Below, piece after piece: positions 572 through 47,636 of a stretch of 64,000 nt of DNA. This DNA is from a virus (lineage: Duplodnaviria; Caudoviricetes). The notes beneath the pieces were generated by a model. It worked only from the letters and a program-made list of their open reading frames with translations, had not been told where the DNA came from and searched no databases. Each line of letters begins with the position of its first letter. Positions within the stretch are counted from its first letter, which is position 1. The stretch is taken from positions 31,655-95,654 of the IMG/VR virus record IMGVR_UViG_3300014204_000139; one strand, given 5' to 3'. A program made the translations under genes and the position numbers.

Positions 572-647
572 TGGTACTCCCAAACGGATTTGAACCGATG
601 TTTTCAGATTGAAGGTCTGACTACCTAACCAATTAGTAGATGGGAGC
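572..647 (-). tRNA. tRNA-Glu(TTC) with C33
   Basis: GCTCCCA...TGGGAGT-A-CCA; anticodon arm TCAGA-CC TTC AA-TCTGA. Confidence 0.9.
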
Positions 648-5204: not shown

Positions 5205-5223
5205 TTTCTGGTTTTAATTAGAG

Positions 5224-5263
5224 ATGAGAGAGTGATAATCGACCAGAATTATCACTCTCTCAT
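5224..5263. terminator. 16-bp perfect hairpin between convergent units
   Basis: ATGAGAGAGTGATAAT / ATTATCACTCTCTCAT. Confidence 0.65.
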
Positions 5264-5309
5264 TCAGAAAGGAGAAAATGGAACCAGAGAATATTGTAAA
5301 ACTCCAAAT

Positions 5310-5535
5310 AGCAGCTGGGAGTTGTTAAGATGCTGAGAGATGCACAACTCGAATCCAGATTTTTCCAATGTCTTTAACCATAACTCTTAAGTCTTGTGTT
5401 ACCCATTATTTTATCAGTCGGGTTAACTGTCAGTCTTGAACCATTAGTCCTTAGTCTTGGTTTTCTTTTCGCGCCATATTGTGATTAAATAATAATCTAA
5501 TAATCGCACCCATTAACCCGAGGATACAGGGGCTC
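5310..5535 (-). ncRNA. candidate ncRNA with two blocks of 7-nt periodic repeats and flanking hairpins
   Basis: Heptamer blocks 5368-5395 and 5424-5458; hairpins 5319-5350 and 5401-5423; no long ORF. Confidence 0.5.
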
Positions 5536-5575
5536 TCAATTCCTTACTTTTACACTACCGAAGTCTTATTTTTAG

Positions 5576-5812
5576 GAGCGAGGAGTATTTTCTTTTAGCA
5601 AAGTATTTTAATAGGAACTCCTTCTGCTCGAATACTTTTTTGAAAAGCGAGTGGTATATTTCTGGAATGATTTATAGGAACCACTTATGCTTTTTGAATT
5701 TCAAAAGGCGGAAAGTATTTTCAATTTAATAGGAACTTTCTATGCCGATTTTATGTTAATATAGCGAGGAGTATGTCATCACCCAAGATTTTAATAGGAA
5801 CTCCTTCTGCTA
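5576..5812 (-). ncRNA. array of four covarying bulged hairpins (5576-5629, 5643-5694, 5707-5746, 5762-5812)
   Basis: Plus-strand consensus GC-G-NNNNGT-AT-[10-22 nt]-AT-AGGA-ACNNNN-TMT-GC with compensatory stem changes. Confidence 0.75.
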
Positions 5813-5843
5813 ATTCTTAAACTAATAGATTACTTTATTGTAT

Positions 5844-5853
5844 ATTTGTTCTA
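5844..5853 (-). promoter_or_regulatory. putative late-class promoter TAGAACAAAT pointing into the hairpin array
   Basis: Exact motif match, about 30 nt upstream of the first hairpin. Confidence 0.55.
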
Positions 5854-7443: not shown

Positions 7444-7453
7444 TAGAACAAAT
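7444..7453 (+). promoter_or_regulatory. putative late-class promoter TAGAACAAAT
   Basis: Recurring motif upstream of the 7543 gene. Confidence 0.6.
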
Positions 7454-9654: not shown

Positions 9655-9664
9655 TAGAACAAAT
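9655..9664 (+). promoter_or_regulatory. putative late-class promoter TAGAACAAAT
   Basis: Upstream of the tail/sheath operon. Confidence 0.65.
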
Positions 9665-18567: not shown

Positions 18568-18596
18568 TTCTTATTACCTTTCTTTTTATTAAAATA

Positions 18597-18634
18597 ATAT
18601 CCGCATTAGACAAACTAATATCTAATGCGGATAT
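18597..18634. terminator. 14-bp hairpin between the 633-aa gene and the nucleotidyltransferase
   Basis: ATATCCGCATTAGA / TCTAATGCGGATAT. Confidence 0.6.
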
Positions 18635-18641
18635 CTTAAAC

Positions 18642-20543
18642 TTAGCTAATCAGATTTATTATTGTATCTTTCTCTAAACTTTCAGGTGAAAGATCAATAT
18701 CACAATCTTCTTTTGAGTCAACCAATATTGCTCCAGATTTCTCTAAAACCTCATTTAATGTTATACTACCAAAATTAAAGTCAAAAAGAAACTGTCTAAT
18801 TTTATTGGTTGATTTTGTTGCTCTTGATGTTATTGAATCCCCAAATGAGGTTTCAACATAATAGAATTTACACTCTTTCTCGTTAGTAACCATCAACCCA
18901 ATAATTTTCTGACGAGTTGAAATTTTAGCACTGTCGGACGAGATAACGTTATTTGGACTAATCATATAATTTCTGGAAAGATTTTCTCTTACATCTCTTC
19001 CAACAATTATTTTGAATGGAACCTCAACCTTTTCGTTAAAATTATAATAGTTGACAAACATAATTGAACATATGGAACTATTTTTATTTACATGAAATAA
19101 TTCTGTAGCACCATTTGGAGGAGTTGCAGAGGTCATATCTCCAGAAAATAAAACAGTTAAATTCTGATTCCTGTAACGTCCATCCCATCCTATTTTGTCT
19201 CCAAGATGATTAATCAAAGAGAGATCTAGATCAATTCTATTTTCTCCAACATCATTCCAATGAATACCAAAAATCATATTATTTGGAACACTAATACAGG
19301 TTCCAGATGGAAAATTTCCAACAAATTGTTTTTCTGTTGCAGGTAATGAATATGTAATATTTTTTGGAATATAAATATTCTTTCCTGCAACCTTTTGTCG
19401 GAGATTTTCACTTATAGATTTTAGAATAATGTTCAATGCATCTTGATGTTTTTTAGAACTTAATTCATTAAAATCTGTAACAAAATTTTTTCCATTTCTA
19501 ATTCTATACAATATATAACTTGGTTCAGATTCTCTAAACTTTACTGAATATACAAGTCTTATTTTTCTAAAGACATTTACTTTTTTTAATTCTTTTTCAA
19601 GAATTTCTAAATCTAGAGTATCATTTTTAATTTTAGATGTTACACTGTTTAGAAAATCTTCTGGCATCGGTTTATGAAAACGTACTGCAAGTCTTCTGAT
19701 TCTATTAATTATGTTATTCATTTCTTCACTTCTTTTAAATGCTAGAAATAAAGGTTTAAATCTGTAGAAAATCTCGCCAAGATGTTCAATACCAAATTCT
19801 TTATCATATTTTTTAAATAATTTGTAAACAATATCTTTGGTGATTGTCATTGATACTTTTATTTCTGAAATTGTATTTGGATCTTTAATCAACAACGTTC
19901 TCCCAATAGATTTAAATATTACAAATCTTAGGAATTCAATAGGATTCTTTGGAATTTTATTTAGACTATCATATAGAACAACTCTAACTTCTTTATTTTT
20001 AATTTGAACCAACTCATCTTCAGAAAAATTAAAAAGTTGTTTAATAAGATTAACCATGCCAATTTTTGTATCATCTTTTAAAGCGATTCCAGACTTTAGA
20101 ACTGCAAAAACTTTTTCTTTTAATTCTTCTATAGTGTATCCCTTAATAACTGTCAAGGGAATTTTATCTAAATTGATTCTTGGAAGTTCTAATTTTTCAC
20201 ATGGAATATAAACTGAATTATTATCATATACACCAAGAGCCTCAAATCCATATGTAGTTATGTAATGCATTATTTGCTCAATTACTAAAACTTCAATATT
20301 TGTTTCTTTTATTTTTCTCCATGATTTATGAAAGGTGTTGTTTATCTTTCTTGAATTAAATCCAATTGTTTCTTCAATCATGGGAATTATTTTAATTAAA
20401 AAATCTGTATCATAGTTATAAATTACTTCTGGTGCATAAATAAATCCACTTTTAATTGTTTCTTTGAGAAGTTTTTTATTTGCTTCTTTTTTTCCATTTT
20501 TTGTAATTGGTAATGCTTTGAATAAACTAATAAATGTCTGCAT
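18642..20543 (-). CDS. large helical protein with C-terminal TerD-like domain (possible Ro/TROVE(Rot)-TerD-type RNA-binding protein)
   Basis: EQIMHYITTYG in the helical region; FGIHW..RIDLDLS..IGWDG..FSGDMTSA..GATE in the C-terminal region. Confidence 0.55.
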   Translation of the reverse strand: MQTFISLFKALPITKNGKKEANKKLLKETIKSGFIYAPEVIYNYDTDFLIKIIPMIEETIGFNSRKINNTFHKSWRKIKETNIEVLVIEQIMHYITTYGFEALGVYDNNSVYIPCEKLELPRINLDKIPLTVIKGYTIEELKEKVFAVLKSGIALKDDTKIGMVNLIKQLFNFSEDELVQIKNKEVRVVLYDSLNKIPKNPIEFLRFVIFKSIGRTLLIKDPNTISEIKVSMTITKDIVYKLFKKYDKEFGIEHLGEIFYRFKPLFLAFKRSEEMNNIINRIRRLAVRFHKPMPEDFLNSVTSKIKNDTLDLEILEKELKKVNVFRKIRLVYSVKFRESEPSYILYRIRNGKNFVTDFNELSSKKHQDALNIILKSISENLRQKVAGKNIYIPKNITYSLPATEKQFVGNFPSGTCISVPNNMIFGIHWNDVGENRIDLDLSLINHLGDKIGWDGRYRNQNLTVLFSGDMTSATPPNGATELFHVNKNSSICSIMFVNYYNFNEKVEVPFKIIVGRDVRENLSRNYMISPNNVISSDSAKISTRQKIIGLMVTNEKECKFYYVETSFGDSITSRATKSTNKIRQFLFDFNFGSITLNEVLEKSGAILVDSKEDCDIDLSPESLEKDTIINLIS

Positions 20544-20560
20544 AAAAATTTCCTTTCTTT

Positions 20561-20601
20561 AAGCGAATGGTATTTTGATTTAATAAGGACCATATATGCT
20601 T
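20561..20601 (-). promoter_or_regulatory. fifth copy of the bulged-hairpin motif, in the leader of the 633-aa gene
   Basis: AAGC-G-AATGGT-AT-9nt-AT-AAGG-ACCATA-TAT-GCTT (plus strand); directly upstream of the AAAGGA RBS. Confidence 0.7.
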
Positions 20602-20622
20602 TAAATAATACCTTTTATTTTG

Positions 20623-47626: not shown

Positions 47627-47636
47627 ATTTGTTCTA
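47627..47636 (-). promoter_or_regulatory. putative late-class promoter TAGAACAAAT
   Basis: Heads the minus-strand terminase/tape-measure operon. Confidence 0.65.

What the first reader, a model, noticed from the sequence alone, without database searches (positions are those of the whole stretch)
18642..20601. The hairpin motif sits on the RBS-proximal leader of a 633-aa helical/TerD-like gene: likely cognate RNA-binding protein with autoregulation
Seen: the only other copy of the array motif I found lies immediately upstream of the AAAGGA RBS of the 633-aa gene, in the same orientation. The protein has a long helical region and a C-terminal segment with DLDLS/FSGD/GATE motifs resembling TerD. 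From memory and unverified: Ro/TROVE(Rot)-like proteins fused to TerD, with adjacent Y-like RNAs, occur in RNA-repair neighbourhoods. Inference: the protein binds the hairpin, represses its own translation through the leader copy, and forms RNPs with (or is titrated by) the four trans-encoded copies made later in infection.
Basis: partly seen in the sequence, partly recalled or inferred. Interest (0 to 1): 0.78.

Follow-up and report, generated by a model that had tools for sequence, protein, structure and literature searches.

The report
Degenerate Y-like RNA hairpin in TerD-protein leader
An uncharacterised 633-residue phage protein and a small folded RNA "handle" are encoded side by side in about 150 of 161 phage and bacterial loci examined, much like the Ro60/Y-RNA particle; here the RNA array has moved 15 kb away and only a weakened copy remains before the gene.

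Summary
A fifth copy of the array hairpin lies at 20560-20602 (-), about 6 nt upstream of the AAGGA ribosome-binding site of the 633-aa gene. It is the only copy outside the four-unit array (5575-5813) in the 95.6-kb record.

A covariance model built without any window sequence scores the array copies at 53-56 bits. The leader copy scores only 26.3 bits (E 1.4e-4), so it is real but degenerate.

The protein's C-terminal part has a TerD fold (Z 8.7-8.8). The helical N-terminal part has no convincing known fold, and the Ro/TROVE link is not supported (no Pfam hit, hhalign probability 0.13, Z 5-6).

RNA-protein linkage is very strong:
- 222 motif hits in 81 viral loci and 138 hits in 80 genome loci.
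- Every hit is on the gene's strand and nearly all are directly upstream.
- Base pairs covary heavily.
- Some relatives carry tRNA-like modules, or a circularly permuted handle inside a tRNA-like RNA.
- Chryseobacterium has rtcB, then these RNAs, then the gene.

It therefore works like Ro60/Y RNA without being a family member. Autoregulation through the leader copy is plausible but untested, and at least four relatives lack a proximal copy. This scan noted the same RNA-protein pair earlier on other DNA.

The parts
18642..20543 (-). 633-aa gene: small N-terminal alpha/beta part, helical body (about residues 130-390), TerD-fold domain, short C-terminal tail
   Evidence: ORF and translation. More than 3300 homologues of about 630 aa, none with a Pfam domain. 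AlphaFold2 model with pLDDT 83.5 and pTM 0.83.
18786..19292 (-). Codons for the TerD-fold beta-sandwich (residues about 418-586)
   Evidence: Foldseek: 2kxt E 4.2e-5, probability 1.00, TMt 0.61; 3ibz E 1.3e-4. VIA: 2qz7_B Z 8.8, rmsd 3.3, 144 aligned; 2kxt Z 8.7, rmsd 3.2, 147 aligned. NF041916 matches residues 411-486 at E 1.5e-6.
20560..20602 (-). Leader copy of the RNA handle. It is degenerate: the loop core reads UCCUU instead of UUCCU, and the inner stem has 5 bp plus a U-U.
   Evidence: R1 51.2 bits. Independent R2 26.3 bits, E 1.4e-4. Fold.
20551..20555 (-). AAGGA Shine-Dalgarno site, 7 nt before the ATG and about 6 nt after the hairpin's outer helix
   Evidence: Read directly from the sequence.
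5575..5813 (-). Array of four full-strength handle hairpins (5761-5813, 5705-5748, 5644-5693, 5575-5630), lying in the tRNA and non-coding RNA region
   Evidence: R2 53-56 bits, E about 1e-12. Stems covary.
5844..5853 (-). TAGAACAAAT promoter-like motif pointing into the array
   Evidence: Four of the five exact copies in the window are intergenic and point at the next gene or the array (with the ORF map).
18596..18635 (-). Terminator-like hairpin with a 17-bp stem and a T-rich tail, directly after the gene's stop codon
   Evidence: Terminator scan.

Best explanation
The 633-aa protein has a helical body fused to a TerD-fold domain. It is most likely the protein partner of a family of small structured RNAs that share one conserved handle.

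The handle consists of an outer helix ending in GC, a 3x1 internal loop (A-N-A opposite C), a 6-bp inner helix closed by G-C and U-A, and then UCCUAUWAAA.

Together they most likely form a ribonucleoprotein that works like Ro60 with Y RNAs. The handle binds the protein. The variable apical parts, which are tRNA-like in many relatives, would engage other partners in tRNA or RNA repair and quality control alongside RtcB, RlaP, an RNA ligase and the CCA-adding enzyme.

The ancestral layout is RNA array, then ribosome-binding site, then gene, all on one transcript. In this phage four intact RNAs have moved to the tRNA region under their own promoter-like motif. One weakened copy remains about 6 nt upstream of the Shine-Dalgarno site.

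If the protein still binds that copy, it would block 30S access and so give feedback repression. That last step is inference only.

Shown here: the motif, its covariation, the linkage and the TerD fold. Inferred: binding, the RNP function and the repression.
For: Linkage:
- All 222 R1 hits in 81 viral loci are on the gene's strand. Nearly all lie within about 500 nt upstream.
- All 138 hits in 80 genome loci show the same arrangement.
- By a separate pattern scan, 75 of 81 loci have an upstream copy. The last copy mostly ends 19-31 nt before the ATG; in the window it ends 20 nt before.

RNA structure:
- 99.7% of cells are paired, 8 of 9 pairs show compensatory changes, and 0 of 500 shuffles reach the observed values. 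Slid controls give only 34-61% paired.

The handle as a discrete module:
- 20 loci carry a circularly permuted handle, all on the + strand.
- In Chryseobacterium it sits inside a tRNA-like RNA, which the tRNA model scores at 49.6 bits with a 44-nt insert.
- Proximal copies in relatives carry T-arm and D-arm modules, as in YrlA (PMC4201824).

Context:
- The window has RlaP, an RNA ligase and a CCA-adding enzyme nearby.
- About 30 genomes have rtcB directly upstream on the same strand.
- Homologues are embedded in same-strand tRNA clusters.

Leader copy: it is independently significant.
Against: - No binding or expression data exist. No RNA sequencing run was listed.
- The leader copy scores half of the array copies and alters two near-invariant nucleotides. 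It may no longer bind.
- L021 and L070 have arrays only downstream of the gene. L032 and L050 have no proximal copy. A leader copy is therefore not required.
- A position next to the ribosome-binding site is also what a compact array-then-gene layout gives by default.
- The helical part has no recognisable RNA-binding fold.
Confidence: 0.72

Rival explanations
1. The protein and the four array RNAs are partners, but the leader copy is only a decaying remnant of the ancestral upstream array. It has no regulatory role.
For: - The leader copy scores 26.3 bits against 53-56 for the array copies under a model that never saw the window.
- It is the only one of 80 aligned copies that is changed at two near-invariant loop positions.
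- Relatives with rearranged arrays (L021, L070, L032, L050) keep no proximal copy.
Against: - Both helices still pair, and the inner stem sequence differs from all four array copies. It is therefore not a recent duplicate, and it has stayed folded.
- The spacing to the Shine-Dalgarno site matches the family norm.
Confidence: 0.4
2. The hairpins are cis-acting RNA elements that the protein does not bind. They could be processing sites or 5' stabilisers that separate tRNA precursors from the mRNA.
For: Arrays usually lie between tRNAs and the gene on one strand. The last hairpin would then form the 5' end of a processed mRNA.
Against: - The motif follows this one gene family across phages and many bacterial phyla, with or without tRNAs nearby.
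- Arrays also occur downstream of the gene, and in this window they occur in trans.
- tRNA-like and permuted versions argue for stable, functional RNAs.
Confidence: 0.1
3. The protein is an enzyme that modifies, cleaves or joins the hairpin or tRNA-like RNAs. In this reading the RNAs are its substrates, not scaffolds.
For: - Invariant His, Lys, Glu and Arg clusters occur in the N-terminal part: FHKSW at residues 71-75, H93-G99, E116 and R326-R329.
- The neighbourhood is rich in RNA-repair enzymes.
Against: - No catalytic fold or family was recognised by Pfam, PHROGs, NCBIfam, PDB sequence search or fold search.
- Several different RNAs sharing one handle fit a binding platform better than a substrate set.
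Confidence: 0.12

Closest known systems
Ro60 (Rsr) with bacterial Y RNAs YrlA and YrlB, as in the Salmonella rsr-yrlBA-rtcBA operon and mycobacteriophage Ro60 loci (PMC4201824, PMC7790460)
   Same: - A large protein of about 60-70 kDa is encoded next to, and on the same strand as, two or more small RNAs that share a protein-binding stem with a bulge.
- At least one RNA in many loci carries a tRNA-like T-arm and D-arm module.
- The genes lie in or near rtcB RNA-repair operons.
- The system occurs in both bacteria and phages.
   Different: - No TROVE or vWA_Ro60 domain is present. The C-terminal domain is a TerD sandwich, not vWA.
- The RNA handle differs in sequence and shape from the Ro-binding helix. 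Rfam YrlA scores 17.6 bits against a gathering score of 69.
- A true Ro60 is encoded beside one homologue (L113), so the two are not simple substitutes.
TerD-family proteins (Klebsiella TerD 2kxt; Streptomyces SCO6318 2qz7)
   Same: The beta-sandwich fold of residues about 418-586 matches (Z 8.7-8.8). Conserved acidic DxDxS, SGD and GAxE motifs are present.
   Different: - There is no Pfam TerD sequence match.
- The domain is fused to a 400-residue helical body.
- There is no ter operon context. The context is RNA instead.
MXAN_6230/SCO0854 family RING-domain proteins (NCBIfam NF041916)
   Same: The whole-protein predicted structures agree, with TM 0.74 over 596 residues. A weak sequence match covers residues 411-486 (E 1.5e-6).
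   Different: - The phage protein lacks the RING domain and is 200-360 residues shorter.
- It scores 26.7 bits against a cut-off of 600.
- That family's function is also unknown.
Translational operators bound by their own gene product (T4 RegA, MS2 coat protein, ribosomal-protein leaders; from general knowledge)
   Same: A hairpin resembling the protein's main RNA target sits just 5' of the Shine-Dalgarno site. It deviates from the consensus, as weaker operator mimics often do.
   Different: No binding or repression has been shown. In relatives the proximal copy is usually a full-strength member of the array.

Membership tests
TerD domain | TerD-type beta-sandwich fold | tested here: met
   2qz7_B Z 8.8 (rmsd 3.3, 144 aligned). 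2kxt Z 8.7 (rmsd 3.2, 147 aligned). Foldseek probability 1.00.
TerD domain | Match to Pfam PF02342 | tested here: not met
   No hit for any of 33 family members at E <= 5.
TerD domain | Calcium-binding acidic sites | not testable with these tools
   Invariant D438, D440, D469 and E481 are suggestive only. No residue-level alignment to TerD was obtained.
Ro60 / TROVE | TROVE domain by sequence | tested here: not met
   No PF05731 hit at E <= 5. hhalign of A1 against the Ro60 of L113 gives probability 0.13. A profile search of PDB sequences found nothing at E <= 10.
Ro60 / TROVE | HEAT-repeat ring fold | tested here: inconclusive
   Full model: 1yvp_A Z 6.0 (rmsd 4.9, 199 aligned) and 9l5y_B Z 5.8 (rmsd 6.6, 192 aligned). 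N-terminal part alone: Z 5.0-5.3. These values are within the noise for helical proteins.
Ro60 / TROVE | C-terminal vWA domain | tested here: not met
   The C-terminal domain has a TerD fold. There is no vWA_Ro60 hit.
Ro60 / TROVE | Adjacent same-strand small RNAs with a shared stem, some of them tRNA-like | tested here: met
Y RNA (Rfam YrlA RF02553) | Score at or above the family's gathering threshold | tested here: not met
   No hit in the window or in seven relatives' loci. The best score is 17.6 bits against 69.
NF041916 RING_SCO0854 | Score above the cut-off and presence of a RING domain | tested here: not met
   26.7 bits against a cut-off of 600. No RING family match.
Autoregulatory translational operator | Target-like hairpin within the 30S footprint of the protein's own mRNA | tested here: met
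   The helix ends at 20561, the Shine-Dalgarno site is 20551-20555 and the ATG is 20541-20543.
Autoregulatory translational operator | The protein binds the operator and represses translation | not testable with these tools
   This needs EMSA and reporter assays.
Autoregulatory translational operator | The proximal copy is conserved across the family | tested here: inconclusive
   It is present in most loci (56 of 75 within 8-37 nt). It is absent in L021, L070, L032 and L050.

The most novel reading that the evidence does not exclude
A widespread and so far undescribed ribonucleoprotein family exists in phages and at least eight bacterial phyla. A helical/TerD protein binds arrays of Y-like and tRNA-like RNAs through a modular handle. 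It is an analogue of Ro60/Y RNA of independent origin and works with RtcB and RlaP in tRNA repair. In this phage it also sets its own level through a low-affinity handle in its mRNA leader.
Probability: 0.45. Interest if true: 0.85.

Novelty: new variant of a known kind. Interest (0 to 1): 0.72.

Why it matters
Ro60/Y RNA is the only well-studied case of a protein that small RNAs tether to RNA-repair or decay enzymes. A second, unrelated protein with its own RNA handle would show that this design arose more than once.

The system found here has more than 3300 homologues, modular tRNA-like RNAs and the same rtcB context. It would also give meaning to a large family of hypothetical phage proteins that sit in tRNA clusters.

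Cultivable Chryseobacterium strains and cultured phages (S-CRM01, Campylobacter IBB35, Lactobacillus LpeD) make it testable.

The split layout in this window is a natural experiment. It shows that the RNAs need not be in cis with the gene, and it isolates a single leader copy for a clean test of feedback control.

Tried and rejected
- Pfam, PHROGs and NCBIfam gave no family for the protein apart from the weak NF041916 match.
- A profile search of PDB sequences found nothing at E <= 10.
- The N-terminal 410 residues were folded alone (pLDDT 76). Foldseek found nothing better than E 0.17, and the best VIA score was Z 6.2, to dynein. No fold was assigned.
- hhalign against a real Ro60 was negative.
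- Rfam has no family for the hairpin, in either gathering or E-value mode.
- The botulinum-toxin rows in Foldseek have TM below 0.1 and rmsd above 27. I dismissed them as spurious.
The contigs of the closest homologues (P0002-P0006, 60-63% identity) could not be fetched.
- The metagenome scan gave no relative above 54% identity. Whether the split layout is conserved in a clade could therefore not be tested.
- No RNA holder was listed for the locus.
- The LemA-like and phrog_2087 neighbours are not conserved beside homologues. I dropped them from the system.
- The Burroughs and Aravind 2016 paper on RNA repair is not held. Its treatment of Rot/TROVE could not be checked.
- Literature searches for TerD together with TROVE or RtcB found no description of this pair.

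Full report
**What is there**

The window comes from a phage-like record of about 27% GC, 95.6 kb long and estimated 28% complete. Most genes are on the minus strand and there are several tRNA runs.

The finding's gene is 18642-20543 (-) and encodes 633 aa. A 17-bp terminator-like hairpin at 18596-18635 follows it. The LemA-like gene upstream ends 79 nt before its ATG, and no terminator was found between them.

The 79-nt leader contains one hairpin at 20560-20602 (-). Its outer helix ends at 20561. The AAGGA site is 20551-20555 and the ATG is 20541-20543.

It has four units of one design:
- an outer helix ending in GC;
- an internal loop, A-N-A opposite C;
- a 6-bp inner helix;
- a loop beginning UCCUAUWAAA and ending AU before the stem.

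The stems differ between units but always pair. The inner stems are AGGAGU, GAAAGU and AGUGGU, and one outer helix is GGC/GCC instead of AGC/GCU.

**Is the leader copy real?**

Model R1 was built from the five window copies. It finds only those five in the window and in the whole record, and the next best site has E 0.5.

That test is circular, so I built R2 from 70 copies in relatives only. R2 gives 53.1-56.0 bits for the four array units, 26.3 bits (E 1.4e-4) for the leader copy and 13.6 bits for the next site.

The leader copy is therefore a genuine member of the family but a weak one. Among 80 aligned copies it alone differs at two near-invariant loop positions. It also has a U-U at the base of the inner stem and the shortest loop.

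**Linkage with the protein**

The protein has more than 3300 homologues of about 630 aa. All are unnamed and none has a Pfam domain.

In 81 viral loci, R1 gives 222 hits at E <= 1. All are on the gene's strand. Nearly all form arrays of two to seven units within about 500 nt upstream, and a few lie just downstream.

In 80 loci from bacterial and MAG genomes there are 138 hits at E <= 0.1. Again all are on the gene's strand and directly upstream. These genomes include 30 or more Chryseobacterium genomes, Pirellulaceae, cyanobacteria, Ktedonobacter, Desulfobacterales and Erysipelotrichaceae.

Across 80 copies, 99.7% of cells pair and eight of nine pairs show compensatory changes. No shuffle of 500 reaches the observed values, and slid controls pair at only 34-61%. 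That alignment was fitted to the model, which favours pairing, but the variety of compensatory pair types is large.

**The handle behaves as a module**

Many RBS-proximal copies in relatives carry a T-arm and a D-arm in the apical region, in the order T then D. This is the circularly permuted tRNA-like layout described for YrlA (PMC4201824).

Twenty loci have the opposite topology. There the outer helix is capped by a 3-9-nt loop and the open ends run into a larger RNA. In Chryseobacterium sp. S-02 that larger RNA matches the tRNA model at 49.6 bits, with the handle as a 44-nt insert in the anticodon loop.

Both topologies give the same object: a tRNA-like body joined to the handle. That is what one expects if the handle is a protein-binding unit.

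**Context**

In the window the gene lies among an RlaP nucleotidyltransferase, an RNA ligase and a CCA-adding enzyme.

About 30 flavobacterial genomes have rtcB, then the RNAs, then the gene, with RlaP genes nearby.

In roughly 20 of 50 viral loci the gene and array are embedded in same-strand tRNA clusters, often with a tRNA directly 5' of the array. In Synechococcus phage S-CRM01 the homologue g174 sits in the middle of the tRNA cluster.

One planctomycete locus also encodes a true Ro60 two genes away.

**The protein**

The full-length model is confident (pLDDT 83.5, pTM 0.83). Residues about 418-586 match TerD structures: Foldseek probability 1.00, VIA Z 8.7-8.8 with rmsd 3.2-3.3 over 144-147 residues.

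The helical part gives only middling, non-specific matches. Ro60 entries appear at Z 5.0-6.0 among many unrelated helical proteins. Foldseek finds nothing for the N-terminal part. Sequence and profile tests for TROVE are negative.

The whole architecture resembles the bacterial MXAN_6230/SCO0854 RING family, with TM 0.74 over 596 residues and a weak sequence match. It also resembles uncharacterised proteins of Campylobacter virus IBB35 and Lactobacillus phage LpeD.

**Autoregulation**

*For:*
- The hairpin lies within the 30S footprint.
- The spacing from the last hairpin to the ATG is 19-31 nt in most relatives and 20 nt here.
- When the array moved, one folded copy stayed behind.

*Against:*
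- That copy is the most degenerate one.
- Proximal copies in relatives are normally full-strength array members.
- L021 and L070 have arrays only downstream. L032 has an HNH-like ORF between the array and the gene. L050 has a gap.
- A compact array-then-gene layout explains the spacing without any regulation.

I put the operator role at about 0.3 and the relic reading at about 0.4. Cognate RNA-protein pairing I put at about 0.85.

**Comparison and novelty**

The system works like Ro60/Y RNA but fails the membership tests for TROVE, vWA and the YrlA model. I found no description of it in Rfam, Pfam or the papers searched.

Earlier notes from this scan describe the same pair on other genomes. 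I reached the same reading with my own tests. What this window adds is the split layout and the independently scored, degenerate leader copy.

Noticed in passing
window 5230-5560 (-): A GC-richer, structured-looking RNA region of about 330 nt lies directly 3' of the hairpin array. It has repeated AAGACU units and ends in a long terminator-like hairpin at about 5220-5265. Rfam gives no match even at E 10.
   Followed up: partly
window 5844-5853 (-), 7444-7453 (+), 9655-9664 (+), 47627-47636 (-): Four of the five exact TAGAACAAAT copies are intergenic and point at the next gene or the array. One-mismatch copies are about twice as frequent as in shuffles (42 against 22). This is probably a phage promoter element.
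   Followed up: partly
L113:9675-11324 (-): A true Ro60 (TROVE plus vWA_Ro60) is encoded two genes from the helical/TerD homologue in a Bythopirellula genome, with a PcfJ-like gene between them. The two systems can therefore co-occur.
   Followed up: partly
L005:3705-4001; L007:6395-6826; L080:6514-6937: Related phage contigs carry an RNase P RNA (148.8 bits) or a tmRNA inside the same tRNA clusters that hold the gene and array.
   Followed up: no
L032:8466-9986: An ORF with an HNH-like GHIPWNK motif appears to have been inserted between the hairpin array and the gene. This leaves the gene without a proximal hairpin.
   Followed up: no
window 575-647 (-): Rfam finds a tRNA here (54.6 bits) that ARAGORN did not report.
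   Followed up: no
It does not contain the GUUCCUA handle, so I did not count it as part of this system.
   Followed up: partly
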